Source of the DNA: a virus
Lineage: Duplodnaviria; Caudoviricetes
Virus record (IMG/VR): IMGVR_UViG_3300030419_007568
Location: 1 to 52,260 of that record
Strand: one strand, 5' to 3'
Length of the DNA: 52,260 nucleotides
Below the pieces are notes generated by a model that saw nothing but the letters and a program-made list of their open reading frames with translations, had not been told where the DNA came from and made no database searches. Shown here one piece after another: positions 62-32,019 of this stretch. Both the position numbers and the translations under genes were made by a program. Every line of letters begins with the position of its first letter. The first letter of the stretch is position 1.

Positions 62-2551
62 CTAACTGAAATTTTTACTTAAACCTATTAGATATTCCAG
101 CCCATAATCACAAAATGAAAGTATAGATAACCTGCAAAAACCATCATAAACATTTTGAAATACTGAACTCGTTATGAGAGTATTGTCAAATCTGTCTTTA
201 ACAATAAATCTTACATCTTTTATGTCCTCTTCGGGGGACGTTATTTCTGCGTTTTCTGCTGCTGTCTTAACTGCATATATTTGAAACCCTTGGTCCTGCC
301 AAGATTCGCCGACGCCATCGGCAGCGGCGGCTTTTTTAGCCCATGTGGTATCTGTCTCATATGGAGACGAAGCACTGGTGGGGGTGTGCCAGCCAAATAA
401 AGAGCACGAAACCATCGAAGGCGCATTATATTCAAGATTGTGAGAATTTTGTCTATTAGGAAATATAAACTCACACTCAGCAGTCATACCAAGAGAGTTC
501 AAAACACCGTCAGACCCAGTAATGAACCCATGAGAGGCAGGATTTATAGAACTTGAACACTGATATACTGTTGCATCGCTACTCGTGGCACTCGTTCGTA
601 AGCCACTAAAATCCACATATTTTTTGTTGCTTGAGATTGTTCTATAATTGTCTTCTAATTCATAAGCATAGTTGTTTGCATATGTGTTTAGGGAAACAAT
701 ATTCTGATCTATGCCGTAGCAGCGGATCAGGTTTCTTATTGCTTTCTCGTTGCCCTTGGATTTATAAATGTAGCCAAGATTGTTGTGAATATTCTTATAT
801 ATTATGCTCTTAATTTGTTGCAATTCTTGCTCAAAGTTTTTAGAATCACTTCGCTTGAAAAACCTCTCAAGAATATCTGCATTTGCAAACATTTCTGTAG
901 TATTTAAACCTTGGTTCTCCAACAGGCGGTTGTTATAGGGAAACTCGTTGGAACTACCAGTCAGAGTACCGCTCAGATATCTAAGATCTTTTGTTTTATT
1001 AAGTTCCGAAATTTGGATATGCAGTGTATCAAAATAACTTCCTATAATTTGACTTAAGTTTTTCAACTCGTTTCCGGATTTTGCGTCCTCATCAATGATC
1101 CATGCCGGCATAGTGTTCATGAGATATGAAGTGTTCCCATGATCATACTCAGATCCCGTGTTAGCTAACTCAGTCCTTGTGTTTTTGAAATTTGTGTTGT
1201 CTCGACGAATTACTGGTGATCTATCTTCGAAAATGTCCTTTTTCGACATCTCATTAATGGCGGAACCTGTCTGTCGTGAATTGCTACTATCATAACCGAC
1301 ATAAGTTCCGTTTGCAACTCGTCCGGAGTAGTCTAAAACAGTTTTATCAAATCTTGCTACACCAGTAATACCTTCGTTAAATTTATAATAAAGACCTAAA
1401 GATGCATCAGCATCGTTTACATTTGCTCCGCCATCAATGTTGGTGAACCAGTTTCTTCCTATCTCTTTGCCGGTTCTTGCTTTTTTCCAGAATCTAAACT
1501 CATCTATAGAGGCGGATATTTTTCCCCAACCTTCGGTGGGTAGAACTGCGCCGCCGACGTTTGTTCCTGATACAGGTGCTCTTAGTGCTCCAATGTTAGC
1601 AACAAGTGTTCCTGTTACTTCGTTTAGGGAGCCTGATTTGACGCCGCCCTCTGAGGGGATATTACCGGCAGCCGAGGGTCCCCCATAACTACTGGCTGTT
1701 ATGTTTGTCTGATGGCATATTCCATCCATGTAAAAATCAATGTTTGGAGTAGGCCCAGAGGTATTAAAGACAAAAGAGTAGTGATGCCAAGATCCGCTGG
1801 CAATAGCCAGTCCGCCTGTAGTCGGAACAGACTGGGTCATGAACCCAGTGGTTCCCGAAACCAGTGTTACTAGAAATCTATCTTGATCTGACGATGTTAG
1901 TTCTATCCTTAGTCGTCCATAATTGCTGGAGCCGGAGGTTGAGCCGTTTGACAGGTCGAAAATAACCTGTTTTTTGCTCTGGCTGTTGTCGTTGGGTATA
2001 AGGTTGTCTTTTTTCAGGAAAAACTCAATGGTCGATCCAGATACGCCAGCAAAAGTTAAGTTGGATGTTGTGTTGCTTCCTGTCGCATATACGTTTCCTG
2101 CGTGTGGTCCTCCTTTTGCTTGCACAAAATCAATCGAAGAGGAATAATACCCGGAAGGGTTGTCTGCAACGTCGCCAGGTGTTCCATACGAGGCTCCGAT
2201 CTTAATATAACCTGTCTCTTTTGGATAGACATGTTGAAGAACGTATTTTTCCAGCGGAGACAATTCATTATAAAACTTTGTTTTTTCTAATCCGGAGCCG
2301 TCATAAGGATAATTGTCTACAATGTGATCAAATGCTGCTTCATAATATTTTTGCGCTGATCCATATTTTGCAAAGTTTTCTGGCCTAGAATAATCTATCG
2401 GTGGTAAGTAATCGTTTTGTCTTCTAACGCTCTCCGAGAGGTGTCCCGACGATTCAATTTTGGAATCAAGCGACTTTACAGAAGATTTTTTTAGGTATTT
2501 TCCAACAGAACCATTTTTTCTGTTTTTATCAAATAACTTTTTTACACTCAT
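62..2551 (-). CDS. Large virion structural protein, baseplate wedge-like with LamG/concanavalin-like domain; C-terminus possibly truncated or chimeric
   Basis: LamG-type motifs TIEFFLK, WHHYSF, IDEFRFW, LYYKFNEG; KSKGNEKAIRNLIRCYG resembles the KGT-type wedge motif; downstream of gp6/gp25-like genes. Confidence 0.65.
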   Translation of the reverse strand: MSVKKLFDKNRKNGSVGKYLKKSSVKSLDSKIESSGHLSESVRRQNDYLPPIDYSRPENFAKYGSAQKYYEAAFDHIVDNYPYDGSGLEKTKFYNELSPLEKYVLQHVYPKETGYIKIGASYGTPGDVADNPSGYYSSSIDFVQAKGGPHAGNVYATGSNTTSNLTFAGVSGSTIEFFLKKDNLIPNDNSQSKKQVIFDLSNGSTSGSSNYGRLRIELTSSDQDRFLVTLVSGTTGFMTQSVPTTGGLAIASGSWHHYSFVFNTSGPTPNIDFYMDGICHQTNITASSYGGPSAAGNIPSEGGVKSGSLNEVTGTLVANIGALRAPVSGTNVGGAVLPTEGWGKISASIDEFRFWKKARTGKEIGRNWFTNIDGGANVNDADASLGLYYKFNEGITGVARFDKTVLDYSGRVANGTYVGYDSSNSRQTGSAINEMSKKDIFEDRSPVIRRDNTNFKNTRTELANTGSEYDHGNTSYLMNTMPAWIIDEDAKSGNELKNLSQIIGSYFDTLHIQISELNKTKDLRYLSGTLTGSSNEFPYNNRLLENQGLNTTEMFANADILERFFKRSDSKNFEQELQQIKSIIYKNIHNNLGYIYKSKGNEKAIRNLIRCYGIDQNIVSLNTYANNYAYELEDNYRTISSNKKYVDFSGLRTSATSSDATVYQCSSSINPASHGFITGSDGVLNSLGMTAECEFIFPNRQNSHNLEYNAPSMVSCSLFGWHTPTSASSPYETDTTWAKKAAAADGVGESWQDQGFQIYAVKTAAENAEITSPEEDIKDVRFIVKDRFDNTLITSSVFQNVYDGFCRLSILSFCDYGLEYLIGLSKNFS

Positions 2552-4071
2552 GGCGCAGGCTCTTCAACCCTAAACTTAAACTCTTCAGACTGTTGTCTGT
2601 ACTGTCCTTGTAAATAGTAAGCAAATTGTAATTTGTAGGTGAACCCCGGCTCTAAATGTGATGTATCCAATTCAAAATAGTTTCCACTAACGTCATATGA
2701 CATTCTAGTGTAGTCTTTAACACCACTGCCTGTACCAAATGGAATAATTTCCATATTATCAATTTCTCTAGTGAGGCGATAATACCCATCATCAATCACT
2801 TCAGGTACAACATTTGTAGTCGCAGATGTGTAAATATTAGGATTCCAGTTTTTCTTTCTTGCAAAAACCCGAAGTCTGGGCTTTTGTCCTTTTATATAAG
2901 ATCCTTTAAGATTTGTTACGTCTGTCACATACTCGTCTTCATAAATAAGCTCCAAAGCACTCAAGGAAGTAGGCTCATATGAGCCTGTGAAAAACTCTGT
3001 GATATTACCGGGCTGAGAAGCTGTAAACCAAACATCATACAGATAATCTTCTGAAGCTGTTGTCGCAAACGAGGCAGAATAAACTCCGACAAGGGCAACG
3101 CCGTTTTCTATAACTTGCCCTCCCGTAACATGGTTTAGGGCGTTATTATCTTCGTCTAAAAGCAGAACGCTATTAGTTGTCGGTGCCGAGACACTGCCGC
3201 TGTAAACTTTAACAAGAACTGTTTCGTTTACCAATCCCGGTATATTTTTCAATTGTCCTCGTATACTGTTGTACAAATAAATCGTGTTTAAATTATCTGA
3301 GCCTGGTGCAAGACTACTACTAAGCATAAAATTGCCTCGGTTGTCTTTTCTGGAAGAATCCCAACGAGCTTCTAGAACAGGTCTTTTAAAGTAAAATTCG
3401 CTATTCCTGCCAAAAAATTTCTTAGTAAAAAATGTTCCGTCGTTGCCAGCGATGGCGGCATCTGTATGCTTTAAAAGAAACCCGTGACTATTAGCAGATC
3501 CAGAGGACACCCATCGATCTACAATCGTATTAACATTTACATCTAGATCTTCCAGTCCGCCGGAGAAAAAATAGTTTACGGAAACGTTGTTCTCTCCTGG
3601 CTCGTAACCACCAGTAATGGCAGTAACCGGGTCAGAAGTGTCGGACCCCCAAAAGGCACCGTTGCTGGCACTTACCCAGTTTGCGGTACCTAAGTCAGAA
3701 TAGTTTTCCATGTCTAGTCCACGGCCCTCTGACCAAGATTGAGTCAACATAACTACATCAAGACTATAACTCATAGGTGTTGTGTTAGCATGTGGTGCAT
3801 TGAACAACTTTAGTCTATAGTCCACGTTAGACGATGGTATCACGCCATTATTAATGTCGTCAATAACATGAGTCATATCAAAATGAAGTAAAATTCTGGA
3901 CTGTTCGGCATTTACGGTGTCAGTAGAAGCCGAAGTTTGACCGTGGATAACGAACGCCTCTAGGATGTCCGACGCCCCCATATTTGAACCAGAAGCACGG
4001 GTAGATAAATTTGCCTTAAAGGCATTTGAGATTGTAGTATCTTTTATAGCAAAGTATCTCTTAATTCCCAT
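2548..4071 (-). CDS. Virion structural protein (tail/baseplate-associated, beta-rich)
   Basis: 507-aa ORF with stop/start overlaps to both neighbours in the baseplate module; beta-sandwich-like pattern (KDTTIS...SRILLHFD...RPVLEARWD); S/T/G rich. Confidence 0.55.
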   Translation of the reverse strand: MGIKRYFAIKDTTISNAFKANLSTRASGSNMGASDILEAFVIHGQTSASTDTVNAEQSRILLHFDMTHVIDDINNGVIPSSNVDYRLKLFNAPHANTTPMSYSLDVVMLTQSWSEGRGLDMENYSDLGTANWVSASNGAFWGSDTSDPVTAITGGYEPGENNVSVNYFFSGGLEDLDVNVNTIVDRWVSSGSANSHGFLLKHTDAAIAGNDGTFFTKKFFGRNSEFYFKRPVLEARWDSSRKDNRGNFMLSSSLAPGSDNLNTIYLYNSIRGQLKNIPGLVNETVLVKVYSGSVSAPTTNSVLLLDEDNNALNHVTGGQVIENGVALVGVYSASFATTASEDYLYDVWFTASQPGNITEFFTGSYEPTSLSALELIYEDEYVTDVTNLKGSYIKGQKPRLRVFARKKNWNPNIYTSATTNVVPEVIDDGYYRLTREIDNMEIIPFGTGSGVKDYTRMSYDVSGNYFELDTSHLEPGFTYKLQFAYYLQGQYRQQSEEFKFRVEEPAP

Positions 4072-5858
4072 TATCTTACAACTCCTGAAATATCTGTGTC
4101 GGGAAATAATATTTCGGCGACGGCATCCTGGGGTATCGTAATATACCTTCCGTCATCAGAAACGTTGGAATCCATGTCATAGAAAAAGTTACTGTATCCA
4201 CTTCCCGCTTTGTTTTCAATTTCTACCCTTACCGTGTCGATAACTCCTGGCACTTCATTTAAAAACTTGTATAGTTCTGAAATGTGAATGGACTGTCCTA
4301 TATCTCCCTTTACTCTCAACTTATCTTGCAGTTTGGCAATACAGGCGCTTATTACGTCAAACCTGTTTGCGTTTTCAACTGTAATAATTTCAAAATTTAT
4401 CCCATAGTTAATAATTTTTGCGTCCAAAATATCAATCGTATCATTGAGCATTCGATATTGGTTTAGCCAAACTTTAAGATTTCTTTTAAGTGTTTCGTTA
4501 GAAGTGGTAAAGTTACCGTCAGCGTCTTCTGACAGAATATATAAGTTTAGGTTTCTTCTCATGGTAGAAGAGTCTTGGAGAATGTTCGCTCTTTTTATTT
4601 TTCCAAATTTTGATGGCATTCTGTAACACAAAGAAATATAATCGGAACGAGTTACCGCCCTATTCTGGGAAGTAAAAGAAGATAGCGCCCTTGTTCTGAT
4701 TTCGTCTGGTGACAACATAGTTGAATCGCCTAGTATCGGCTCTTCGTTCTCTACCTCGATAGATCCCATGACCTCGCTTACGGTTAGCGGATTTAATGTT
4801 GAACGATTTTTAAAAATCACATCAGGAGAAACTACTGTACTCACCGTTCCCGCAGCGGCGTTAACTTCTCCGACATTGTTCGCCCTGTATAAGATTGTTA
4901 GTGTGGTGTTTACTGGAACAACTCCAAACTTATCAGCCTTTATTAGGTTTGACGGATCAAAAGAACTGTCAGTAACATAATTTCTTCCTGTCACGTCCAA
5001 AACAATATCGGCTGGGTCGGCGACCAAATCTGTTGTTAGATTTTCTTCGGATCCGAATCCAAACTGTAAAAAGCAATTTCCGTTTTCGTCAAATTCTGTC
5101 ACAAATCTTCTGGGAACAGGTTTTGCCTTCATTATGCTGGGTGTTACATCTCTGTCTGATGCAAAGTTTCTATTTTCAGACAGAACAATGTCTTGGGTTA
5201 AATGATCAACTTCTATATATTCATTCCCCTGAGAATCAAAAACGTTTTGAACTTCTATCACAGATCGTACTCCCAAAGGAATTCTCAAAAACCTTTGATA
5301 TCCGCCAACTGATATATCTTTTTGAAATAACTGTCCTGAGACTACTTGTCCGTAAGACTTTATGGCAAAATGACTAGGAACACCCGTTGTTGGGTTTACT
5401 TTTGCTACCGTGATTTCGTTAGTAGGCTTTGAAAAATCAATGTCTTCATTCAAGGTGAATGTTAGTCCTGACTGTGATGAAATTAACGATCCTTTTTGCA
5501 ATGTTGGGATATAACTTGAGTCAGGATCACCTAGAACATCCGCAGGTATCACTGCATAAAAAGCGCAAGCCCCCACAGAGGAAGGGGCTCCGGGCATCTT
5601 AAATCCCATCTGCCTAGCTAACCTAACAATGTTTCCATATTCTATGGCACTATCTATAAAACTTTCGTTTGTTTGGTAATCCAAATAAAATGACAACTGG
5701 TCTCCGACATAGGAGACCAAATCAAGCATCATTGCTCCGAACGACGCTTCATTAAAATCCCGAAATGTTGTTGGATAATATCTTTCAGCATAAGACACTA
5801 GGTCACGCTTAATTGTGTCAAAATCTCTGCTAGTATACGAAATGGGTCTTTTTTTCAT
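4071..5858 (-). CDS. Baseplate wedge subunit (T4 gp6 / baseplate J-like)
   Basis: YTSRDFDTIKRDL...DFNEAS.G.MMLDLVSYVGDQLSFYLD N-terminus and SQNRAVTRSDY motif typical of gp6-like proteins; adjacent to gp25-like gene. Confidence 0.85.
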   Translation of the reverse strand: MKKRPISYTSRDFDTIKRDLVSYAERYYPTTFRDFNEASFGAMMLDLVSYVGDQLSFYLDYQTNESFIDSAIEYGNIVRLARQMGFKMPGAPSSVGACAFYAVIPADVLGDPDSSYIPTLQKGSLISSQSGLTFTLNEDIDFSKPTNEITVAKVNPTTGVPSHFAIKSYGQVVSGQLFQKDISVGGYQRFLRIPLGVRSVIEVQNVFDSQGNEYIEVDHLTQDIVLSENRNFASDRDVTPSIMKAKPVPRRFVTEFDENGNCFLQFGFGSEENLTTDLVADPADIVLDVTGRNYVTDSSFDPSNLIKADKFGVVPVNTTLTILYRANNVGEVNAAAGTVSTVVSPDVIFKNRSTLNPLTVSEVMGSIEVENEEPILGDSTMLSPDEIRTRALSSFTSQNRAVTRSDYISLCYRMPSKFGKIKRANILQDSSTMRRNLNLYILSEDADGNFTTSNETLKRNLKVWLNQYRMLNDTIDILDAKIINYGINFEIITVENANRFDVISACIAKLQDKLRVKGDIGQSIHISELYKFLNEVPGVIDTVRVEIENKAGSGYSNFFYDMDSNVSDDGRYITIPQDAVAEILFPDTDISGVVR

Positions 5859-5883: not shown

Positions 5884-6291
5884 CTAATTAGTAATTTCCT
5901 CAGTAAAATTTAAGGTATCATTTAAGTTTAGTGATCCGACACTATATTCAATTCTTATAACAACCTGATTTGCTCCCAAAGACGGGTTCTGACTATTGTC
6001 AATAAAGCTAACTTTTCCCAAAGCAATAAAAGGCATCCATTTTTGAACTTGTTCATGAAGTTTTGTTAAAATCTTTTGGTTTGTTCCCGGTGTTATTCCC
6101 TCAAAAAGAAACCTCCTTAAACCAACTCCAAAATCAGGCATCATTATTCTTTCGCCCGAAGAAGTTAAAACTAAATTTTTAAAGTTTTGCTTTATGACCT
6201 CTCCAACAGTTTTGTTGAGTTTGTAAGGACCATCATTAAGATCGACTGTTAAGGGGAGTGAAACAGAAAGTCCTTCTAATTTAAATGCCAT
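5884..6291 (-). CDS. Baseplate wedge protein gp25/GPW-like
   Basis: IKQNFKNLVLTSSGERIMMPDFGVGLRRFLFE signature; AAGGAGG RBS. Confidence 0.9.
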   Translation of the reverse strand: MAFKLEGLSVSLPLTVDLNDGPYKLNKTVGEVIKQNFKNLVLTSSGERIMMPDFGVGLRRFLFEGITPGTNQKILTKLHEQVQKWMPFIALGKVSFIDNSQNPSLGANQVVIRIEYSVGSLNLNDTLNFTEEITN

Positions 6292-6325: not shown

Positions 6326-9300
6326 TTATCCTTGTTCATTTAAGAACTCTCTTAATTTATTGATATCTGACCGAGGGTCGTCTGGATTGGCTGAACTATA
6401 GTATTTTACGGAGTAATAATTGAGAAGATAATAAATGTACGAAATAGCTACCTTATCCAATGTGTCAAAATGTCCGGCAAGGTTATCTGCGGACACAAGA
6501 CCTCTTTCGTGACCTATCAGTCCAAAAGTTATTAAATCTTGGGTATAGTCTATCCCCCTAAACCCGTTTGATCCATAAGGAGGGGGTCCGCCGTTGTAAT
6601 TATCTTGAAAAGCTAATTCACCACCGCTGATCCCCCACATACCTGGGTGAGGATAGGACATACCGTTGTACCCTTGTCCGTCCGCACCTTTTGGTTTATA
6701 CCATCTTGGTATCGGGTCGTAATCGACACCCCAATCAACCGGAAACTCAATTTTTGATTGGTTGTAAAGGGTTGTCCGTTGGTTGCTAATATAATTTTGT
6801 AAAAAAGTTTTGCCGGTGGCAGTGCGAGCGTCTACTGGAGCATAAGGGTTGTAATTTTCTTTAACATCTGCTGAAATTTTATACTGATCTATGAAAGACT
6901 GAGCGCCAGCGTGTTCCATTAATCTTAGTCGTTCTGTAAAAACAACATTTTTGGCATATAATCCCGTAGAAGCGTCTTCAACCACACTTTCATCCCTTGG
7001 CCAAGCACGGATTGAGTTAGAATCTCCATAATTTGCGATGAGTGCATGTCTTTGCCATGTAACTCTTGTGCTTTGCGGTAAAGCTTGAAAACGCTGAAGT
7101 ATTGATTGGTTTCCTTGTGGGCGGAAAGCATAAAGTGTATTCCAAAAATCTCTATTGGTGGAGGCAGTCGCTTCGAGAGGGTCCATGTTCGACGGTTTGA
7201 GGGTCTCCTCTCCGAATGCTACTATAAAGCCAGAATATCCGCCTTGACCATACACAGAAATTCCAAGCATTGTTTGATAATCATTAATTTTATCCCAAAA
7301 CCCTTGAAGTCTCTTGATTTCGTCACGAACTTCCCTTTCTGAATAGTATGTTTTGCCTGAAAGAACCAGAGGAAATGAACTGTAGCTATCACTGAACGCT
7401 GTAATGTTGTCCGGATTAACGGCTGTCATAAAAGTATCATCGGCGGCGGCAATTCTCTTTCCTGTCATAAACTTAAACATCGGAAGGCGGTTCTGAATAT
7501 TTACAACATGATCATGATAAATTGCAAGAAGTCCCATAATCAATGGTTGAGGAAGGTAGTACAAAGAGTCTCGACTATACCAAATTTCAGAATCCGTCCC
7601 AGCGTATCTAGTGTTATGAAGAGCCTTTATTTTAGGGGCAACTCCCGCTGTTTCGCCAGAAAAAGCAGAGGGGCTTTCAGCATTTCCCCCCAGCGACTCT
7701 GCCGTTAGTTGTCTGTTTTCTCCAGCGTTGTGTGTGCCCCGCCTGACAAAGTCGGCAAATGCGGTAAAATGTTCCCTATACTCTCTTTCTTTAAATATAT
7801 TTGTGTTTGCCGAATAATATCTAGTTTTTGTACCTACTCTATACATCATTGTTTTCAGAATTAACTCAATAGCCCTATCAAGCTTGGACCGCAGATCATG
7901 ACGGTCGCCTATTTGGAAGGTAACTCCTGCATCATTAGCGACGCCGCCACTGTACACATCATCTACAGCGTCCATACTTGTCAAATATATCTCATACAAG
8001 CCAGTGCGGCTCGTTTCATATTCAAATTTTTGAGCTAAATATCCCGCCATCATCGATACAGTATCTGGCATATTAAAACCATGATAGGCTCTAAGTATAG
8101 GTCCCAGATTAAGCATAAAAGTTGTAATTCTTGCTTGGAGTGATGCCATACATGATTTGGCTATCATTTCTTTTCGTATATCCGGACACGGATTTCCATT
8201 TGTTACAAACAGTGGTTCAGAAAGCGCCGCAGTATATGGTCTCAAAGCTGCGATACCATCACCGTTGGCGAAGAAATAACTACCAAGATCTTTTATTGGC
8301 GTATAATTTAACCCGAAACCAAGAGGAAAAGCATATCCATCTACATTGCGGTTTCGTACAGTTGTCGGGGCGCTGACTTCAATAGCATTGTTGATAGCGT
8401 TTGCCATCGGTGTCGTAAAAACATCAAAAGTCGTTCCTGCTGGTTTTCCGTCGGGACGGGCTTTGCCTTTAATGACAAAATTATTTCCTTCCATGCCGAT
8501 GGCGTTATCGCTAGCCAGTCGAGCACTGCCAAGAAAAACTGGTGAAATAAGGTTTCCGTCGGCATCGGGCATGACCGCTGACATAAACACTTCTTCGTTG
8601 TTGAAACTAAATTCGACGTAACCGGGACTTTCATCGTTTGGGCTCCCCATGCGCCAAACTGGAACAACTGCACCAGGAAAATCAGGTAGCCTTGAAGCAA
8701 CTACATAAGGCTTTGCCCAGGTGTTACTAAATTCTCCTTGTAGGATTTCATAAAGTACTGTATTGTTTTGTTGTGGCAACGGTGGCTTAGGTGCTGCTGC
8801 GGCTTCAGCGGACATTCGGAGCGCATCTGACATAAACAACTGGAATAGTTTCGAAAGGTAAGCTATTTTTTCTAGAAGTTTTCGCCAATATTCGGCGACG
8901 GGAAAGCCCTCAAAATCTTCAAATAGTTCCCAGTCTCCCCAATCTCCAAACTCAATCCCATTAATCATCTCACAAAGATCATAGATTTGCTCCAATTGTG
9001 CAACAGTCTCTTCTTCGACCTGTTTAGAGTATTGAGCATATGACATGAGGGGTGTCTCTAGTCCTGCGGATCCTATGTCTTTTGGCGCACAAAATTCTTC
9101 AGAAGGTTCTTTTGGTTCGCTAGGAACGGCTTCCGGTCCCAAAGCGTCTCCTAATTTTTTCAAATATTCTTTTAATTTTGCTTCATTTAATTCAAGAGTT
9201 GCGTATCGTTCATCCCCGGCATTAAGAGAATCGGTAGACATTAAAATTCTGGTCTTCATTTCCTCAGACAAGGGAACTATTCTACCGCCATCCTCTATTG

Positions 9301-11224
9301 TAATTTGTGCCTGTTGGTCACCCCATTTGATCATACCAAGAAGAAAACCCCAAGATTCCTCGGTTGATGGTAGTTGATTTGCATTTGAAATTCTTCCTCT
9401 TTGTTGAGCGTTCAAAATATTATTATACTTTGAGGTGTCTATATTGCTGTGGACCATTTCTAATAGTATTTTTATTAGCGACACAGGAGAATTACCATCT
9501 AGAAGACCTTCTAATTCTTCTTTTGTACACTGGTCGGAAATATCTCGATTAAGTTGTCGTATTTGTGCTAAAGTTGGGGCTTTTCTTACTATTTTTGGTG
9601 CGTCAGATGATGGGTCGTCAAGAACTTTATTTACAATCTCTAGTTCAGAAAACATTTTCGAAAGATCTATGTACGTTTCAGATTGATCAATTAGTTCGTT
9701 TAATTGAAGCTCGCCATAGGGGAATTCAGATGTCGGGCGTCCTGTGTCTGGCTTAGATGGGTCTGGCTCAGGTCCACAACCCAAGGCGGCAGCCAGAAGA
9801 TCTTTAAGTGCTGAAAGTATAAATTGCTTAATATACTCAACTAGCATTTTTTCAATGGCTTCTGTCCATAGCGCCAACGAGTTTCTGGTCTTACCCTTGA
9901 ACTTTAAAAGGTCAAACTGGAGACCAGGGTTTGCCTCCGTTACAACCTCCCTAATAAGATTTTTAGCGCCTGGTGCTTCGTCAACAAGTGGGTCTAGAAG
10001 AAAATCACCAGCAGCTTCGCCAATAGCCTCAAGAGCACAACTGATTACTCTGTTGACTTCTGTTTCTATATCTCTGCTAATTTTAGCTGGGTCCCTGACA
10101 TAGTCATCTACATTGTTTGAATTTACTGTAATTGACCCGAATTGAAACTCGGCTTCTTCAACGCCCTCTTTTATTTCTTTCAAAGTTTCGTTGGCATACT
10201 TCGATTGTGCCAAAAACAAAAGATCCTTAGCTTTTACAATAGCGTCGGCGATTATATCTTTTTTTTCCACTTGGTTAAAAATATTAACTATGTCCCAAGC
10301 CTCTTTTATTGTTTGAGAAAGTCCAGTATCACAGGATCCCATAGCACTCCTAAGAGTGTTCGTGACTTCTTTGCCGGTAATATTGGTGGATTGTTCCAGC
10401 ACACGAGCAAGGACGCCCGGTTCTTTAAAAAGTTCTTCGTCTCCCATGGCGGCAGCCATCTTTTGGTTTGCGTTTTTTTTGGCTCCGCCCGCTGATGAGT
10501 TTAAAACGTCCTTTAGGTCTTTTTTATCATCAGGAGAAGGGATGTCGATTGTGGAAGGATATATTGAATTTCTGTTTAAATTAGGGAAAGTGTTTGCTAC
10601 CAAAAACCGTGTCCAGGGAGGAAGTTCTTTAGTTCCAGCATATCCGGCAATTGTTTTCGAATTACAAAGATATGCCATTGAGGTACTGTTTAATGCTTCG
10701 AAAGCATCATAGCTTTCATTATTCTTTATCATCCCATGTTTAGATAACCCAATCCCTTCTAAAATCAAATTACCGTTGTAAAAGACATACCTTAACACAT
10801 AATTGTTGTCAAATCTTAAGTCTATAATATCTTCTGGGTCTCCCTGTAGTCCATTGATTGTTATAAATTTGTCTAAATAACTGCCAAATGGCTCAAGGGT
10901 GGCTATTTCTTGTTCTAAATCAAATCCCGATAAATGAGAAGGAGTTATCCTAGATTTGTCAAGTATATCAGCATACCTCTTTAAAACCTTTAAAGTTTTT
11001 TCTACAGTCCTGCGAAGACTTTCCAAGCCAGACACCACAGAAATTGGCGCAGGAGGAAGCGATAAAAGCAATTTTGATATTTCTAAAGGAGATAAGGCAG
11101 GTGTCTGAGTTAAAACCGGAGGCTGAATGGTGAAATCAGAGAGACGGATGTCTCTTTCTTCCGGGGGGGCGACCTGTCCGGCGTCGCCGCCGCCACCGCC
11201 GCCGTGCTGTGGATTATAAGCCAC
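6326..11224 (-). CDS. Large hypothetical protein in the tail/baseplate module (1632 aa)
   Basis: Long uninterrupted ORF between spike and gp25-like genes; helical-looking; no recognised motif. Confidence 0.6.
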   Translation of the reverse strand: MAYNPQHGGGGGGDAGQVAPPEERDIRLSDFTIQPPVLTQTPALSPLEISKLLLSLPPAPISVVSGLESLRRTVEKTLKVLKRYADILDKSRITPSHLSGFDLEQEIATLEPFGSYLDKFITINGLQGDPEDIIDLRFDNNYVLRYVFYNGNLILEGIGLSKHGMIKNNESYDAFEALNSTSMAYLCNSKTIAGYAGTKELPPWTRFLVANTFPNLNRNSIYPSTIDIPSPDDKKDLKDVLNSSAGGAKKNANQKMAAAMGDEELFKEPGVLARVLEQSTNITGKEVTNTLRSAMGSCDTGLSQTIKEAWDIVNIFNQVEKKDIIADAIVKAKDLLFLAQSKYANETLKEIKEGVEEAEFQFGSITVNSNNVDDYVRDPAKISRDIETEVNRVISCALEAIGEAAGDFLLDPLVDEAPGAKNLIREVVTEANPGLQFDLLKFKGKTRNSLALWTEAIEKMLVEYIKQFILSALKDLLAAALGCGPEPDPSKPDTGRPTSEFPYGELQLNELIDQSETYIDLSKMFSELEIVNKVLDDPSSDAPKIVRKAPTLAQIRQLNRDISDQCTKEELEGLLDGNSPVSLIKILLEMVHSNIDTSKYNNILNAQQRGRISNANQLPSTEESWGFLLGMIKWGDQQAQITIEDGGRIVPLSEEMKTRILMSTDSLNAGDERYATLELNEAKLKEYLKKLGDALGPEAVPSEPKEPSEEFCAPKDIGSAGLETPLMSYAQYSKQVEEETVAQLEQIYDLCEMINGIEFGDWGDWELFEDFEGFPVAEYWRKLLEKIAYLSKLFQLFMSDALRMSAEAAAAPKPPLPQQNNTVLYEILQGEFSNTWAKPYVVASRLPDFPGAVVPVWRMGSPNDESPGYVEFSFNNEEVFMSAVMPDADGNLISPVFLGSARLASDNAIGMEGNNFVIKGKARPDGKPAGTTFDVFTTPMANAINNAIEVSAPTTVRNRNVDGYAFPLGFGLNYTPIKDLGSYFFANGDGIAALRPYTAALSEPLFVTNGNPCPDIRKEMIAKSCMASLQARITTFMLNLGPILRAYHGFNMPDTVSMMAGYLAQKFEYETSRTGLYEIYLTSMDAVDDVYSGGVANDAGVTFQIGDRHDLRSKLDRAIELILKTMMYRVGTKTRYYSANTNIFKEREYREHFTAFADFVRRGTHNAGENRQLTAESLGGNAESPSAFSGETAGVAPKIKALHNTRYAGTDSEIWYSRDSLYYLPQPLIMGLLAIYHDHVVNIQNRLPMFKFMTGKRIAAADDTFMTAVNPDNITAFSDSYSSFPLVLSGKTYYSEREVRDEIKRLQGFWDKINDYQTMLGISVYGQGGYSGFIVAFGEETLKPSNMDPLEATASTNRDFWNTLYAFRPQGNQSILQRFQALPQSTRVTWQRHALIANYGDSNSIRAWPRDESVVEDASTGLYAKNVVFTERLRLMEHAGAQSFIDQYKISADVKENYNPYAPVDARTATGKTFLQNYISNQRTTLYNQSKIEFPVDWGVDYDPIPRWYKPKGADGQGYNGMSYPHPGMWGISGGELAFQDNYNGGPPPYGSNGFRGIDYTQDLITFGLIGHERGLVSADNLAGHFDTLDKVAISYIYYLLNYYSVKYYSSANPDDPRSDINKLREFLNEQG

Positions 11225-14926: not shown

Positions 14927-15607
14927 TTAATTAATTTCTCCCCGGTTCCATTTTTCCTTAAAAATTCTAAATTTTACTCTCATTTTGTTTAAACAGCTTA
15001 CAACCTGCTTTGTATTGAGTCCTGTTATTTCCCGCATATAAAGATAAATTGCCTTCTTATTGAATATTTCTATATCATCTATGTTTTTCATAAGAAGCAA
15101 AACAGCATCCAAAACTTTCTTCTCGTTTTCTTTAAGTTTGATGTTTTGCCATCCCTCAACTTCTCGAAGCAGGAAAGCCCAAAATTCTTTCTCCTCGGCT
15201 TCAGACAAAATATCCTTACTGTCGGCATTCGAGATTTCGGCTTCTTTGATCATGCTGTCATAATTTACTTCTCGGCGGTTTTTTTGTGTTTGTTTCTTGG
15301 CTTTGTGAGTAAACCAGTTTTTGGTAACCACGGAAAAATAAGAAAAAGCTTTCGTACCTTGCTTTGGGTCAAATTTCGACAATATAGTTGTCAGCCACAC
15401 CTTGCAATCATCCTTGAGAACATCTACATTTTCAAGAGAAGTAAATTTATAAGTATAAACTATTTTATCTACTAGTTCGTTAAATGCTGGCTGTATTTCT
15501 TCAATATAAAGCTTTGATCTTATTGTGTTGTCGTTTGTTTTACAATAATCAATAATTGCTTGTTCTGTTACTTTTGTAAAATAATAGTTCTTACTCTTCT
15601 TCTTCAA
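14927..15607 (-). CDS. Phage sigma factor (T4 gp55-like late sigma)
   Basis: Region-2-like KFDPKQGTKAFSYFSVVTKNWF and C-terminal HTH-like IYLYMREITGLNTKQVVSCLNKMR. Confidence 0.7.
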   Translation of the reverse strand: MKKKSKNYYFTKVTEQAIIDYCKTNDNTIRSKLYIEEIQPAFNELVDKIVYTYKFTSLENVDVLKDDCKVWLTTILSKFDPKQGTKAFSYFSVVTKNWFTHKAKKQTQKNRREVNYDSMIKEAEISNADSKDILSEAEEKEFWAFLLREVEGWQNIKLKENEKKVLDAVLLLMKNIDDIEIFNKKAIYLYMREITGLNTKQVVSCLNKMRVKFRIFKEKWNRGEIN

Positions 15608-16302: not shown

Positions 16303-17307
16303 TTATTCTCCTTCTGTTTTTAAAATGTATTCATAATCTTGTTCGAACATTGTTTGAGCAAGTTTTTTAAAAGTTATTTTTGGCTCCCAACCCAAAACAG
16401 TCTTCGCTTTGGACGGGTCTCCCAAAAGATAGGGAACCTCATGTGGACGAAAAAGTCTTGGGTCTATCTCCACATGCTTATTTATGTCAAGACCGGCAAA
16501 GTCAAACACTTCTTCTAAAAATTCTTTGACTGTATGGGTTTCACCAGTTGCGATCACATAATCATCCGGATTTTCTTGTTGGAGCATTAACCACATTGCC
16601 TCTGCATAATCTCCTGCGAAACCCCAGTCTCTCTTGGCTTCTAGATTACCAAGATATAATTTATCTTGCAATCCTTGTTTGATCCTGGCAGCCGCAAGGG
16701 TTATTTTTCTCGTGACGAATGTTTCTCCTCGGCGGGGGGACTCATGGTTGAATAATATACCACTCGAAACATGTAATCCGTATGCTAATCTGTAATTTCT
16801 ACAAAGGTTGTGAGCAAAAACTTTTGCACACGCATAAGGGGATGCCGGCATTAATCTAGAATTTTCGTCAAAAGGATAATTTGGATTATCCCCAAACATC
16901 TCTGACGATGAAGCCTGATAAAATCTAGACTCAGGTACCAACTCCTTGAAGGCATTCATAAGCCTCATGGACCCCATAGCAATTCCGTCAACCGTGTTTT
17001 CTGGGATATCAAAAGAGACCCTGACATGGGACATTGCCGCTAGATGATATATTTCATCAGGCTTGTATTTGTTTATTAGTTGCCATGTTCTAGATGTGTC
17101 ATTGAGATCATAATATTCTAAAATAAAATTTGGATGGTCAAAAAGGTGGTCGATTCTGTCGGAACATATTATTGAGGTTCTTCTTTTTGCCCCAACTACT
17201 TTATATCCCTTTTTCAACAAAAGTTCCACAAGATATGATCCATCTTGTCCGGTCACCCCTGTTACAAAAGCTGTCTTAGTTTTTAAATTGTTTTTCGTAC
17301 CAGTCAT
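16303..17307 (-). CDS. gmd: GDP-mannose 4,6-dehydratase
   Basis: TGVTGQDGSYL, YQASSSEMFG, SPYACAK, FNHESPRRGETFVTRKIT, KRDWGFA; start probably ATG at 17307. Confidence 0.95.
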   Translation of the reverse strand: MTGTKNNLKTKTAFVTGVTGQDGSYLVELLLKKGYKVVGAKRRTSIICSDRIDHLFDHPNFILEYYDLNDTSRTWQLINKYKPDEIYHLAAMSHVRVSFDIPENTVDGIAMGSMRLMNAFKELVPESRFYQASSSEMFGDNPNYPFDENSRLMPASPYACAKVFAHNLCRNYRLAYGLHVSSGILFNHESPRRGETFVTRKITLAAARIKQGLQDKLYLGNLEAKRDWGFAGDYAEAMWLMLQQENPDDYVIATGETHTVKEFLEEVFDFAGLDINKHVEIDPRLFRPHEVPYLLGDPSKAKTVLGWEPKITFKKLAQTMFEQDYEYILKTEGE

Positions 17308-18178
17308 AGGTATTCCTAACTCCATCCTCAAATTTAATAAATTCATAACCACCGAGAAGATCGATCAGCCTTTGGTTTGAACCATCTTTTCTATATTGCC
17401 CATCAAGTTCATTATTGTAAACAACTTCAATCTTTTTATTAGATCTTTTTTTAATAATCGAAACCATTTCGGATATAGAAATATTTTCATTCGGCGCAAC
17501 GATAATTGGTATGTCCGTGTGGTGCTTTTCCAATAGTATAGGAATAATTTTTGCCAAATCATCAACATGTAATTGTTGACGAAGGGGTTTTCCTGTTCCC
17601 CATACCTCGATCTCATCACCGTCGGAAGCCTCGGAAAACTTTCTAATCATAGCCGAGACAAAATGGGAAGTATCCAGATCAAAATTGTCCTCTGGTCCAT
17701 AAAGATTTGATGGACAAAAGGCTGAATAATCAAGACCGTATTGGCGGCGATAAGCCATTATTTGTATATACAGGCTTCTTTTAGCATACCCATAAGATAT
17801 ATTTGTGGCAGCAGGTGGACCGTTAAATATATCTTCTTCTTTTAAGGGGTATTCTTCTACAACATCAGGAAATGTACATGTACTTAAAGATACAAGAAGT
17901 CTTTTCACCCCATTCTCATAGGCTTTTTGGACCACATTTGTGTTCATCATGGTGTTCATGTAATAAAAGTCTGCTGGTCTATCATTATTGGCTTTTATTC
18001 CTCCAACCTGTCCCGCTAAATGGATTACGGCATCAGGCTTTAACTCCTTATACATTCTGTCACAATCTTCAGTGTCCATAAGGTTATAGTCTTTTGACGA
18101 CAGATAAATCCACTCAGGCTTTATTAATTGTAGTCTTTTTCCGACGAACCCGGACCCTCCAGTTACTACTACCTTCAT
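17276..18178 (-). CDS. fcl: GDP-L-fucose synthase (epimerase/reductase)
   Basis: TGGSGFVG, HLAGQVGGIKAN, YGYAKR, PSNLYGPEDNF, WGTGKPLRQ; adjacent to gmd. Confidence 0.88.
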   Translation of the reverse strand: MKVVVTGGSGFVGKRLQLIKPEWIYLSSKDYNLMDTEDCDRMYKELKPDAVIHLAGQVGGIKANNDRPADFYYMNTMMNTNVVQKAYENGVKRLLVSLSTCTFPDVVEEYPLKEEDIFNGPPAATNISYGYAKRSLYIQIMAYRRQYGLDYSAFCPSNLYGPEDNFDLDTSHFVSAMIRKFSEASDGDEIEVWGTGKPLRQQLHVDDLAKIIPILLEKHHTDIPIIVAPNENISISEMVSIIKKRSNKKIEVVYNNELDGQYRKDGSNQRLIDLLGGYEFIKFEDGVRNTYDWYEKQFKN

Positions 18179-19461
18179 TATACTTCTATTTCCCCGTCTT
18201 TGGTAACAAGATGTGGGTACGGCATTGGAAATAGTAATTTTCCGCCAGACTGAATATATTCTTTTTCTCTTTCCACAATCTCATCTTTAAAATACCAGGG
18301 CAGAACCAGCATACAACTAGGATTTAGCGATCGTGCGTGTTCTTCTGAAATCAATTCTATGTCAGTTCCTAAAGTTTTTAGTCCTACTTTATCTGGGTTT
18401 CTCTCGCTTATGTACGGGAGCATCTGTTTATCTATGCCGAAAAGCTGAAGTAACATGTTTCCTTTTGTTGATGCTCCAAGACCAATTACAAACTCGCCTT
18501 TGTTAAGTTCTGCTAACATTGAGTTTTTAATTCTGTCTCTAAGGTCTTTGATCTTATCGTAGAAGTTAACATAAGTCTGGGGATTATACAGATCTAATTT
18601 ATCCTCTTCTTCTAGGAGGGTTCTGAGGGCTTGGGATTCTTGATCTGGGTGGTCAATATGTTTTATGAAAACCCTGGCGCTTCCTCCGTTGACATTATTT
18701 GTACTTGCATCAACAATTTTTAAGCCGTTCCTTTTCATAAGAGTGTTTAGAACTTGTAAAGAATAATACTCTAAGTGTTCATTACAAATGTCGTAGAAAT
18801 TAATATTCTCCAACATCAATGGAAGATAACTCAACTGTATACACCAAACACCATCCTTGTCAAGACATTTTTTAATGTCTTTCACGAAGCTGTTCGGATC
18901 GTCCAAATCATAAAACATAGCACAACTGGTAAATATCTTTACTTTCTCTTCCCCAATAGCTGAACTTACGGCATCAAAAGAGAAATAATCATTAACAATT
19001 CTTATATTTTCATTAACGTGAGACCAGTTAATATTTTCCGCTGGCTCGACGCCAACTCTACGCAAATCTTCGGGAAAGTAAGACAGCATAGTGCAGTCGT
19101 TAGCGCCAATATCTACAACAATTTCACCCGGATTACAAGACACTCTTGATGTGACATCTGATACTACATCCTTAAGGTCTTTTCTCATAGTGTCGCTTAC
19201 GGCTGACCTATAAAAATATTGTTTGTATAACAAATCAGGTTTAACTGTTTCCTTTAATTGCAAAAGACCACAATTGTTTTCATCTTTTGATTTATCGCAC
19301 AACAGGAGTGTCTGTGTAACTTTTAAATCTGATAGTTTATTGTTTTCATTCGAGATGACAAATGTTGGCGACAAATGCTGTTCTTCAATTTTGATAACTT
19401 CGATTAGGTCCGAACAACCACAAATTCTGCATCTTTGAATATTTGTAAAATGGTTTGCCAT
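18178..19461 (-). CDS. NDP-sugar C-methyltransferase (Zn-binding, class I SAM)
   Basis: CRICG Zn motif, DIGANDC, YDICNEHLEYYS, GASTKGN, VLPWYFKDEI, GGKLLFPMP. Confidence 0.88.
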   Translation of the reverse strand: MANHFTNIQRCRICGCSDLIEVIKIEEQHLSPTFVISNENNKLSDLKVTQTLLLCDKSKDENNCGLLQLKETVKPDLLYKQYFYRSAVSDTMRKDLKDVVSDVTSRVSCNPGEIVVDIGANDCTMLSYFPEDLRRVGVEPAENINWSHVNENIRIVNDYFSFDAVSSAIGEEKVKIFTSCAMFYDLDDPNSFVKDIKKCLDKDGVWCIQLSYLPLMLENINFYDICNEHLEYYSLQVLNTLMKRNGLKIVDASTNNVNGGSARVFIKHIDHPDQESQALRTLLEEEDKLDLYNPQTYVNFYDKIKDLRDRIKNSMLAELNKGEFVIGLGASTKGNMLLQLFGIDKQMLPYISERNPDKVGLKTLGTDIELISEEHARSLNPSCMLVLPWYFKDEIVEREKEYIQSGGKLLFPMPYPHLVTKDGEIEV

Positions 19462-19464
19462 TTA

Positions 19465-21775: not shown

Positions 21776-22193
21776 TTAAAACCTTTTCTTTAGCCCATGA
21801 TATAGCAGGTTTTAGATAATCATAAGTTTTTTCTAACATTTCATCCCAGTCCAGCCACCTTAAATGTTCATGTTCTAAAATACCAGAGTGCCTATTTCTG
21901 ACTATCTTTCCTTCTTGTGTGGTCTCAGCTAAGTATACTATCAATCTATCCGCTTTTATATGGTCTCTCCCCCATTTAAAATTTAGTGCTGTAATACTTG
22001 ACTCTTCTTCTGTTTCTCTAATTGCCGTTTCAAAAAAGTCCTCCCCGTCCTCAACATGCCCCTTTGGTATATCATATCCACCACGAGCCCACAAGCCAAG
22101 AACTTTATAGTCTCCACCAACAACACGGACGACAACAATTCCAGAGCCTGGTGCTTTTGGCGCTGTTTCCCAAGTCCATTTAAAATCTCCCAT
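21753..22193 (-). CDS. Nudix hydrolase (Ap4A hydrolase-like)
   Basis: Nudix box PKGHVEDGEDFFETAIRETEEESSI. Confidence 0.9.
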   Translation of the reverse strand: MGDFKWTWETAPKAPGSGIVVVRVVGGDYKVLGLWARGGYDIPKGHVEDGEDFFETAIRETEEESSITALNFKWGRDHIKADRLIVYLAETTQEGKIVRNRHSGILEHEHLRWLDWDEMLEKTYDYLKPAISWAKEKVLSDEVKDS

Positions 22194-24175: not shown

Positions 24176-24197
24176 TTTTGCTCCCAGAGTTACAACG

Positions 24198-32018: not shown

Positions 32019-32019
32019 T

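What the first reader, a model, noticed from the sequence alone, without database searches (positions are those of the whole stretch)
62..4071. [S/T]-[G/A/S]-[S/T] tripeptide saturates a subset of virion proteins: candidate glycosylation sequon
Seen (manual counts, approximate): ~22 SGS/TGS/SAS/TAS/SSS/SGT-type tripeptides in the 829-aa protein, ~12 in the 507-aa protein and ~25 in the 525-aa fibre (48323-49900, partly repeat-driven), with further copies in 43125-44455. The 595-aa gp6-like protein has ~1 and the 1632-aa protein ~2. In the first two proteins the motifs are dispersed through non-repetitive folded domains (ASGSW, VTGTL, YSGSV, FTGSY), so they are not low-complexity tracts. Inference: a selected acceptor motif on surface-exposed virion proteins, most plausibly for O-glycosylation by the neighbouring island, which would amount to a phage glycan coat with its own sequon.
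Basis: partly seen in the sequence, partly recalled or inferred. Interest (0 to 1): 0.85.

Follow-up and report, generated by a model that had tools for sequence, protein, structure and literature searches.

The report
Ser/Thr-Gly-Ser motif on phage tail proteins
Two outer tail proteins of this uncultured marine phage, and those of its whole lineage, carry the short motif Ser/Thr-Gly/Ala-Ser/Thr three to five times too often; it may mark where the phage's own sugar-adding enzymes attach sugars, but no chemistry shows this yet.

Summary
Counts are exactly as stated: 22, 12, 25, 1 and 2. In the 829-aa and 507-aa proteins the excess depends on residue order. [ST][GA][ST] occurs 17 times against 4.2 expected and 11 against 2.3. 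It survives local-window shuffles, and same-composition permutations are not enriched. The 525-aa fibre excess is driven by repeats and composition. The ORFs at 43125-44455 are not enriched.

The excess is lineage-wide. It appears in 120+120 homologues and in 80 related loci. TGS and SGS rank among the three most over-represented of all 8000 tripeptides in the outer tail proteins of four divergent phages, two of them cultured, but not in T4.

The glycan island is syntenic and hypervariable, encodes only soluble proteins, and is always led by two conserved GT4 glycosyltransferases. DNA is an unlikely target.

No GT-free relative was found, so co-occurrence could not be tested. Enrichment does not track island size. 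Most sites are conserved in position, and burial could not be computed. The sequon reading is therefore plausible (about 0.4) but unproven; a structural motif is the main rival.

This scan noted the same signature earlier on other DNA. The 829-aa ORF is the truncated N-terminus of a protein of about 3500 aa.

The parts
62..2551 (-). p829: N-terminal ~800 aa of a giant distal tail/baseplate protein (3543 aa in the closest relative), cut by the contig end. LamG/pentraxin-like jelly roll at about residues 140-360. 22 motif copies.
   Evidence: (PF13385, 8.6e-8)
2548..4071 (-). p507: distal baseplate protein directly after the gp6-like gene. No known family. Modelled as a string of beta-sandwiches. 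12 motif copies, 9 of them at one of the 12 family-conserved motif columns.
4071..5858 (-). gp6-like baseplate wedge protein; internal negative control (1 motif vs 3.0 expected).
   Evidence: (phrog_6, 8.3e-22)
5884..6291 (-). gp25-like baseplate wedge protein; not enriched.
   Evidence: (PF04965)
6326..11224 (-). 1632-aa protein of the inner baseplate/hub block; no family; not enriched (2 vs 5.6).
14927..15607 (-). Conserved 226-aa protein that marks the downstream edge of the glycan island in all relatives.
16303..34084 (-). Variable part of the glycan island. Genes: GDP-mannose dehydratase, epimerases, sugar C-methyltransferase, NeuB, cytidylyltransferase, Maf/MptE-like (20912-21775), NUDIX, B12-radical SAM, aminotransferases, GT10-like, split transketolase, methyltransferase, GT2, GT1-like. 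All predicted soluble.
34077..35369 (-). GT4b: second of two conserved lead glycosyltransferases; EX7E motif present.
35348..36619 (-). GT4a: first conserved lead glycosyltransferase; EX7E motif present. 55-66% identical in the uncultured relatives and 36-45% in the three GenBank phage records. The best solved-structure relative by sequence is chlorovirus B736L.
36632..37471 (-). Exonuclease that marks the upstream edge of the island in all relatives.
48323..49900 (-). p525 fibre-like protein with ~54-aa repeats; its motif excess is repeat- and composition-driven.
43125..44455 (-).

Best explanation
h-[S/T]-[G/A]-[S/T], with core T/S-G-S, is an acceptor-type motif on the exposed distal tail proteins of an abundant marine myophage lineage. 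The proposed mechanism is as follows. The two conserved soluble GT4 enzymes (GT4a, GT4b) act in the cytoplasm during late infection and put the first sugars on Ser/Thr of the folded tail proteins. The hypervariable island behind them supplies unusual nucleotide sugars and further transferases, here including a nonulosonic-acid branch with a Maf-like transferase, which elaborate a strain-specific glycan.

Shown: the motif excess, its order specificity, its restriction to outer tail proteins, its spread across the lineage, and the conserved gene neighbourhood. Inferred: that the GTs act on these proteins and that the motif is what they recognise.
For: (1) The excess is strong and order-specific in p829 and p507.

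(2) The result was checked on data the motif was not chosen from. In 120+120 homologues the median z is 5.1 and 4.2, with 98% above 3. In 80 viral loci the median z is 4.5 for the p507 family and 7.1 for the giant protein.

(3) An unbiased ranking of all 8000 tripeptides was run on the outer tail proteins of four divergent phages. TGS and SGS are ranks 1-2 in three of them and ranks 1 and 3 in the fourth. They are absent from the T4 top 15. None of 30 T4 ORFs of 250 aa or more (26 + 4, mostly structural) reaches z 1.2 for [ST][GA][ST].

(4) The motif occurs in different fold contexts: LamG jelly roll, Ig-like sandwiches and a helical segment. It also occurs in proteins with no detectable similarity to p507 or p829 (immuto, Mel-JY01, and the 3302-aa protein of G011).

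(5) There is turnover with the count kept. G011's p507 homologue retains only 5 of 12 family-conserved sites yet has 24 copies vs 8.7 expected.

(6) The GT4 pair is a core feature of the lineage. GT4a was found in 8 of 8 relatives among G001-G010 whose contig reaches the exonuclease edge, in 7 of 7 loci where the exonuclease lies within 10 kb of the anchor, and in 5 of 5 records including two cultured phages. The EX7E motif is intact.

(7) No flippase, polymerase or ligase-type polytopic membrane protein occurs among the 27 window ORFs checked, 25 island ORFs plus two flanking genes, or among 198 island ORFs of 10 relatives. Assembly on a cytoplasmic acceptor therefore fits.

(8) DNA is an unlikely acceptor. 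No ThyA-family hydroxylase homologue occurs in two relatives that are 98-100% complete. Published LC-MS of DNA from the cultured relative immuto shows dA, dC, dT and fdPreQ1 only (bioRxiv 10.1101/2023.04.13.536721, passages).

(9) Maf-type O-glycosylation is described as having no strict sequon but a preference for Ser/Thr flanked by hydrophobic residues (PMC11339370 and PMC9290775, passages).
Against: No glycan has been observed on any of these proteins.

Most of the excess sits at position-conserved columns: 14 in the p829 family and 9 in the p507 family. Outside them the excess is only about 1.6-fold (155 vs 98.9; 86 vs 51.8). Several copies lie in invariant blocks.

Enrichment does not scale with the island. 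G011 (GT4 pair only) and G013 (1.6-kb island) are strongly enriched, whereas G008 (GT4 pair only, both genes intact) is the weakest of 80 loci.

No GT4-free relative exists in my sample, so shared ancestry alone can explain the co-occurrence.

The Maf-like gene matched at E <= 0.001 in only 3 of 5 long relatives, and only 1 of the 5 over Pfam's cut-off. The major capsid protein of G011 is not enriched.

Non-target proteins do not avoid the motif: the observed/expected ratio is 0.75 (z -1.3) in the window and 0.98 in G011.

Model confidence is moderate (pLDDT 68.0 and 68.8) and solvent exposure could not be computed. Strand-end proximity does not differ from the S/T/G/A background (p 0.13).
Confidence: 0.4

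Rival explanations
1. The motif is a structural feature of this lineage's outer tail proteins, unrelated to glycosylation. It would be a small-residue strand cap or turn with two outward hydroxyls between buried hydrophobic residues. The island would instead modify the host envelope, for example to block co-infection, which is the published default for glycosyltransferase islands of marine myophages.
For: Most copies are conserved in position, and several are invariant. The motif has hydrophobic residues at -1 and +3 and excludes charge next to it. In the models it sits mainly at strand ends and in loops. Enrichment is independent of island content and size. The host O-chain modification reading is in print for pelagimyophage islands (PMC7029224, passages).
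Against: It occurs in several fold types and in proteins with no detectable homology. T4 fibres and baseplate proteins lack it. G/A/S interchange at the middle position argues against a Gly-specific turn. G011 shows turnover with the count kept. No membrane export or ligase genes are present for a surface polysaccharide. The GT4 pair is conserved across phages of very different hosts, Flavobacterium and Microcystis.
Confidence: 0.35
2. The motif forms hydroxyl-rich patches that bind host polysaccharide or other ligands. This would be a lectin-like adhesive surface of receptor-binding proteins, not an acceptor for modification.
For: The motif is restricted to distal tail proteins. It lies within LamG/pentraxin- and CBM-like folds that commonly bind carbohydrate.
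Against: Copies are dispersed along 500-3500-aa proteins without arrays or periodicity. Many lie in conserved N-terminal parts next to gp6 rather than at variable tips. No binding data exist.
Confidence: 0.1
3. The motif is an acceptor for a different modification or a different enzyme, such as a host glycosylation system or another Ser/Thr modification. The phage island would play no part.
For: Enrichment is independent of island content. The hosts of the cultured relatives have their own protein-modifying systems; this is general knowledge and was not tested here.
Against: The same motif is found in phages of unrelated hosts, Flavobacterium and Microcystis. That would require the same host specificity in both. 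The sequon I recall for Bacteroidota general O-glycosylation, D-[ST]-[ALIVMT], is different.
Confidence: 0.08
4. The excess is a chance or compositional artefact of a motif chosen after looking at the sequence.
For: The motif was defined post hoc on these same proteins. The fibre p525 excess is indeed compositional or repeat-driven.
Against: Local-window shuffles and order-permuted controls were run. The excess replicates in hundreds of homologues and in unrelated proteins of other phages. It holds top rank among 8000 tripeptides. Codon usage is diverse.
Confidence: 0.02

Closest known systems
Virion O-glycosylation of mycobacteriophages by phage-encoded glycosyltransferases (Freeman et al. 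2023, Cell Host Microbe 31:1216)
   Same: A tailed phage encodes its own glycosyltransferases, and structural proteins are the proposed acceptors.
   Different: I saw that work only as a citation and a one-sentence summary in PMC11256854; the paper itself is not held. There glycans were reported on capsid proteins of siphoviruses of Actinobacteria. Here the candidates are distal tail proteins of a marine myovirus lineage, the capsid protein is not enriched, the island is far larger and hypervariable, and no glycan has been measured.
Maf-type flagellin O-glycosylation with nonulosonic acids (Campylobacter, Aeromonas, Clostridium)
   Same: The window has NeuB, a cytidylyltransferase and a PF01973 Maf/MptE-like protein. 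That system uses soluble cytoplasmic transfer to Ser/Thr of a folded protein, with no strict sequon but a hydrophobic-flank preference.
   Different: There is no flagellin. The Maf-like gene matched in only 3 of 5 long relatives, whereas the motif is universal. Maf therefore cannot be the enzyme that defines the motif and at most caps the glycan.
Chlorovirus and giant-virus capsid glycosylation by virus-encoded soluble glycosyltransferases
   Same: The virus encodes the whole cytoplasmic glycosylation machinery. GT4a's best solved relative by sequence is chlorovirus NY-2A B736L (3oy2, E 2.6e-8).
   Different: The match is weak and covers only the C-terminal half. From recall, those viruses N-glycosylate the major capsid protein at atypical sites; here the candidate is O-linked, on tail proteins, in a bacteriophage.
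Glycosyltransferase/LPS-gene islands of marine T4-like myophages (pelagimyophages, cyanomyophages)
   Same: A large hypervariable island of sugar-synthesis and transferase genes lies beside tail genes (PMC7029224, passages).
   Different: Those islands are interpreted in print as modifying the host O-chain, and no motif on tail proteins is described there. This lineage has no match to GenBank phages for p507 and only 31-32% identity for gp6.
GtfA/GtfB O-GlcNAc transfer to serine-rich-repeat adhesins
   Same: Two adjacent GT-B/GT4-type proteins are present. From recall, the acceptors there are S-x-S-type serine repeats with a small middle residue.
   Different: Pfam found no DUF1975-type insertion in either protein. 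Both phage proteins keep the EX7E catalytic motif. The two share no significant similarity. The acceptor motifs here are dispersed in folded domains, not in a low-complexity repeat.

Membership tests
Phage virion O-glycosylation (mycobacteriophage type) | Phage-encoded glycosyltransferases present | tested here: met
   GT4 x2, GT2, GT1-like, GT10-like and Maf-like proteins. GT4 pair conserved in relatives.
Phage virion O-glycosylation (mycobacteriophage type) | Glycan mass detected on virion structural proteins | not testable with these tools
   Needs glycoproteomics of virions. The cultured relatives immuto and Mel-JY01 carry the same signature.
Maf-type nonulosonic-acid protein O-glycosylation | Maf (PF01973) together with NeuB and a CMP-sugar synthetase | tested here: met
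   PF01973 at 53.1 bits (cut-off 34.6), PF03102 at 1.5e-65, PF02348 at 2.8e-7. These are three adjacent genes at 19465-21775.
Maf-type nonulosonic-acid protein O-glycosylation | Flagellin as the acceptor, and the enzyme present wherever the acceptor motif is | tested here: not met
   No flagellin in the window. The Maf-like gene matched at E <= 0.001 in only 3 of 5 long relatives (1 of 5 over Pfam's cut-off). BLASTP also finds it in G010 but not in G002, G004 or G006-G009, while the motif excess is near-universal.
Lipid-carrier (Wzx/Wzy, WaaL or PglL) surface-glycan or en-bloc protein glycosylation | Polytopic membrane proteins: initiating phosphoglycosyltransferase, flippase, polymerase, ligase/oligosaccharyltransferase | tested here: not met
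   Kyte-Doolittle scan. The 27 window ORFs checked (25 island ORFs plus two flanking genes) have at most one marginal hydrophobic segment. Among 198 island ORFs of 10 relatives there is no large multi-span protein. Use of host machinery is not excluded.
Phage DNA glycosylation (glucosyl/arabinosyl hydroxypyrimidines) | Enzyme making a hydroxylated pyrimidine (ThyA-family hydroxymethylase/5hoC synthase, or TET/JBP) | tested here: not met
   PF00303 is absent from G011 (100% complete) and G015 (98%). The PF12851 search found nothing, but its control also found nothing, so it is uninformative. Immuto DNA holds dA, dC, dT and fdPreQ1 only (passages).
GtfA/GtfB-type two-protein O-GlcNAc transferase | DUF1975 insertion domain; one catalytic and one non-catalytic GT-B partner | tested here: not met
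   Pfam lists no such domain at E <= 0.01. Both proteins keep EX7E.
Concanavalin A-like / Laminin G domain | PF13385 match over the curated cut-off and a jelly-roll fold | tested here: met
   32.9 bits vs cut-off 27.6, residues 161-288 of p829. Foldseek probability 1.00 to pentraxin and laminin-G domains.

The most novel reading that the evidence does not exclude
An abundant, mostly uncultured marine myophage lineage, whose distant cultured relatives include Flavobacterium phage immuto and Microcystis phage Mel-JY01, O-glycosylates its own distal tail proteins at a definable sequon, h-[S/T]-G/A-S. A conserved pair of soluble GT4 enzymes primes the sites. A hypervariable island then builds strain-specific glycans with nonulosonic acids and with methylated, aminated and branched sugars. 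This would give the virion tails glycan 'serotypes'. It would be the first acceptor motif defined for phage protein glycosylation, and a new role for the glycan islands of marine phages.
Probability: 0.35. Interest if true: 0.85.

Novelty: new variant of a known kind. Interest (0 to 1): 0.62.

Why it matters
Glycan islands of marine myophages are usually read as tools for altering the host surface (PMC7029224, passages). If they instead decorate the phage's own receptor-binding apparatus, several things follow. Their hypervariability would reflect selection on the virion surface, for example shielding from proteases, from host decoys or from grazing, or tuning of adsorption. The motif would give a sequence-level handle for predicting which phage proteins are glycosylated. 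The GT4 pair would be a candidate tool for protein glycoengineering.

The result here makes the idea directly testable. The same signature and the same exonuclease-GT4-GT4 arrangement occur in two cultured phages, one of which already has clean DNA-composition data.

My literature searches found no description of such a motif. One search returned no paper for phage + tail fiber + O-glycosylation + sequon, and the listing held none.

Tried and rejected
- DNA-level motif: rejected, because the codons are diverse.
- Local compositional clustering: rejected for p829 and p507, accepted for p525.
- General property of tail fibres: rejected by the T4 controls.
- Shared Pfam domain carrying the motif: not found. 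Of 19 enriched or neighbouring proteins, only 2 match Pfam over its cut-off (LamG in one Mel-JY01 protein and, in p829 itself); the giant relative's LamG match, CBM96, ig and YadA_head all fall below cut-off.
- Fold identification of p507: only generic Ig/MG/CBM-like matches with low TM-scores.
- Co-occurrence test: no relative without the GT4 pair was found. The apparent natural experiment was G008, which has a minimal island and is the weakest of 80 loci in both proteins. It did not generalise: G011 and G013, with minimal or small islands, are strongly enriched, and G008's GT4 genes are intact.
- Avoidance of the motif in non-target proteins: not seen.
- Strand-end preference: not significant.
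- Close GenBank relatives: none for p507 or the DNA.
- Capsid and sheath in the 124-kb relative G001: not identifiable by PHROGs. The capsid protein was found only in G011.
- TET/JBP search: uninformative because the control did not ring.
- Freeman et al. 2023 could not be read.
- No paper mentions Mel-JY01.

Full report
WHAT THE WINDOW IS

The window is the whole 52,260-base contig held for this genome. Nearly all genes lie on the minus strand.

In transcription order it carries:
- Nucleotide-metabolism and PhoH/exonuclease genes.
- A glycan-synthesis island of about 20 kb (16303-36619).
- A conserved 226-aa protein (14927-15607).
- A baseplate block: a protein with a C-terminal lysozyme domain, two proteins of unknown family, a 1632-aa protein, a gp25-like protein and a gp6-like protein.
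- Finally the 507-aa and 829-aa proteins of the finding.

There is no near relative among GenBank phages at DNA level or for p507. The gp6-like protein reaches only 31-32% identity, to Microcystis phage Mel-JY01, Flavobacterium phage vB_FspM_immuto and a 484-kb uncultured phage.

THE OBSERVATION

Against 2000 composition-preserving shuffles the z-scores are 5.6, 4.4 and 3.5. None of the other 43 ORFs exceeds 1.7.

I tested whether this merely reflects Ser/Thr/Gly-rich loops. In p829 and p507 the narrower motif [ST][GA][ST] occurs 17 times vs 4.2 expected and 11 vs 2.3. It remains at z 4.2-5.3 when residues are shuffled only within windows of 6 or 10. The same-composition permutations [ST][ST][GA] and [GA][ST][ST] are not enriched (z 2.0 at most). 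So the order of residues matters.

The fibre p525 fails this control (z 1.4-1.8). Its copies sit in repeats of about 54 aa. The ORFs at 43125-44455 are at expectation.

Codons for the motif are diverse, so the signal lies in the protein, not the DNA. A hydrophobic residue precedes the motif far too often: 15 vs 2.6 in p829. Pooled over 172 copies from four phages, hydrophobic residues are favoured at -1 and +3, and charged residues are disfavoured next to the motif.

p829 IS A FRAGMENT

Homologues are about 1235 aa, or more than 3300 aa. The closest relative (G001, 75% identity in p507) has a 3543-aa protein here. The window's ORF follows it to about residue 803 and then runs into unrelated sequence and a stop within the last ~150 bases of the contig.

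REPLICATION ON INDEPENDENT DATA

The motif was chosen on these same proteins, so independent data matter.
- 120 homologues of each protein (36-75% identity) show median z 5.1 and 4.2, with 98% above 3.
- In 80 related viral loci the p507 family has median z 4.5 (82% above 3) and the giant protein 7.1 (95% above 3). gp6-, gp25-, 311-aa- and hub-like neighbours are never above 3.
- Of 30 T4 ORFs of 250 aa or more (mostly structural), none reaches z 1.2 for [ST][GA][ST].
- In immuto and Mel-JY01, the proteins after the gp6-like gene have no detectable similarity to p507. Yet they are enriched at z 2.4-8.4 for most of them.
- An unbiased ranking of all 8000 tripeptides places TGS and SGS first and second in G001, G011 and immuto, and first and third in Mel-JY01. 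Neither appears in the T4 top 15.

In the complete 180.7-kb relative G011, 7 of 79 ORFs of 200 aa or more exceed z 3. The strong ones lie in the distal tail block at 60.7-91 kb. The major capsid protein is not among them.

CONSERVED SITES VERSUS TURNOVER

Most of the excess is carried by conserved columns: 14 in the p829 family and 9 in the p507 family (in at least 50% of sequences). S/T interchange occurs at the outer positions and G/A/S interchange in the middle. Outside those columns the excess is about 1.6-fold (155 vs 98.9; 86 vs 51.8). Some copies lie in invariant blocks. This is what structural residues look like.

Against a purely inherited explanation, G011's p507 homologue keeps only 5 of 12 conserved sites yet has 24 copies vs 8.7 expected. 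In addition, non-homologous proteins carry the excess.

STRUCTURE

AlphaFold models have moderate confidence: pLDDT 68.0 for p507 and 68.8 for residues 1-800 of p829.
- p507 looks like a string of beta-sandwiches with only generic matches.
- p829 has a LamG/pentraxin-like jelly roll followed by helical and low-confidence parts.

Of the 13 p829 motifs in confident regions, 10 have the central residue in coil, 2 in strand and 1 in helix. Eight lie within two residues of a strand end, which does not differ from the S/T/G/A background (p 0.13). Nine more p829 copies lie in low-confidence regions. Solvent exposure could not be computed.

THE ISLAND

In all ten long relatives examined, the region between the exonuclease and the 226-aa protein holds sugar genes. 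The content is largely non-orthologous between genomes. The island always begins with two GT4 genes, GT4a and GT4b.

GT4a was found:
- In 8 of 8 relatives among G001-G010 whose contig reaches that edge (two contigs end inside the island).
- In 7 of 7 loci where the exonuclease lies within 10 kb of the anchor.
- In 5 of 5 further records, including immuto, Mel-JY01 (split into two ORFs) and the 484-kb phage.

Immuto shows the same order: nuclease, GT, GT, then an 11-kb sugar cluster. Both GT4s keep the EX7E motif. GT4a's nearest solved relative by sequence is chlorovirus B736L at E 2.6e-8; GT4b has none.

Island size ranges from about 1 kb (G008, G011: GT4 pair only) to more than 20 kb.

No large multi-span membrane protein occurs among the 27 window ORFs checked (25 island ORFs plus two flanking genes) or among 198 island ORFs of relatives. 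The pathway looks cytoplasmic and soluble.

WHAT THE ISLAND ACTS ON

DNA is unlikely.
- The two near-complete relatives lack a ThyA-family enzyme.
- The TET search was uninformative.
- Published LC-UV-MS/MS of immuto DNA shows dA, dC, dT and one 324-Da deazaguanine derivative replacing dG (bioRxiv 10.1101/2023.04.13.536721, passages).
- Glycan hypermodification of phage DNA is otherwise a known use of phage GTs. For this I saw the abstract and outline of PMC13326640 and only the start of the abstract of bioRxiv 10.1101/2023.12.21.572611 in the listing.

Host-envelope modification is the published default for such islands (PMC7029224, passages). It is not excluded, because host export machinery could be used.

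Virion proteins remain a good candidate but are untested.

G008 has only the GT4 pair and is the weakest of 80 loci in both proteins: z 1.1 and 2.2. I picked it before seeing the per-locus scores.

However, G011 (GT4 pair only; z 5.9, 4.4, 5.9), G013 (1.6-kb island; giant protein z 7.0) and G014/G015 (about 4-kb islands; z 7.0 and 7.8) are strongly enriched. G008's GT4 genes look intact.

So the excess does not need the sugar-synthesis genes, and G008 stays unexplained. The 484-kb phage has a GT4a orthologue and only weak enrichment: 1 of 5 post-gp6 proteins above z 3. With no GT4-free relative in hand, the test cannot discriminate.

Non-target proteins show no avoidance of the motif.

VERDICT

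The motif excess is real, specific and lineage-wide. Its link to glycosylation rests on circumstantial points:
- A core pair of soluble GTs with no known acceptor.
- Restriction of the motif to outer tail proteins.
- Its occurrence in several folds and in non-homologous proteins.
- Partial turnover of sites.
- Exclusion of DNA as acceptor in one cultured relative.
- Resemblance to the loose hydrophobic-flank preference of Maf-type O-glycosylation (PMC11339370 and PMC9290775, passages).

I put the sequon reading at about 0.4 and a glycosylation-independent structural motif at about 0.35.

Earlier notes of this scan describe the same or very similar signatures on other DNA. They are unchecked leads, not support. 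One of them claims the motif is lost together with the island, which my sample reproduces only in G008.

Phage virion glycosylation as such is known from mycobacteriophages; I saw this only through a citing paper. My searches found no acceptor motif described for phage tail proteins.

Noticed in passing
window 1-150 and 62-2551: The last ~150 bases of the contig are unrelated to the homologous gene of the closest relative. The 829-aa ORF ends in about 26 residues of unrelated sequence and a stop. This is probably an assembly-end artefact that truncates a ~3500-aa gene.
   Followed up: yes
L045/L091 (record G008), p507 homologue at contig 30935-32407 and giant protein at 32408-42406: This relative is the weakest of 80 loci in motif excess (z 1.1 and 2.2) although both GT4 genes are intact. 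Its island holds nothing but the GT4 pair. Other minimal-island relatives are strongly enriched, so the outlier is unexplained.
   Followed up: partly
window 29581-31311: A split transketolase (pyrimidine-binding and TPP-binding halves as separate ORFs) has a methyltransferase gene between the halves. It lies near a B12-radical SAM protein (22193-24175) and a sugar C-methyltransferase (18178-19461). This suggests branched-chain or C-methylated sugars in the glycan.
   Followed up: no
window 37489-38154: A 221-aa protein has weak, below-cut-off matches to metallopeptidase families (ATLF, Peptidase_M90). It is conserved at 37-60% identity between PhoH and the exonuclease in all relatives examined.
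   Followed up: no
L100 record PP395634 (Mel-JY01), 83444-84536: The GT4a orthologue of this cultured phage is split into two ORFs (198 and 313 aa). This is either a frameshift or a sequencing error. Its tail proteins are nevertheless strongly enriched.
   Followed up: no
window 14927-15607: This 226-aa protein has no family match, is lysine-rich and is highly conserved (53-80% identity over 10 genomes, 78 invariant columns). It always lies between the glycan island and the baseplate genes and may be a late-gene regulator.
   Followed up: partly
record G011 (L190-L198, L186), 47487-58538: The complete 180.7-kb relative encodes a 3684-aa protein upstream of gp6, plus 2263-aa and 3302-aa proteins downstream. 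These three giant genes together make up about 15% of the genome.
   Followed up: no
window 40006-40968 and 40814-42865: Two long same-strand ORFs overlap by 155 bases. In relatives the two genes abut or overlap similarly, so the upstream start of the 320-aa ORF is probably called too early.
   Followed up: no
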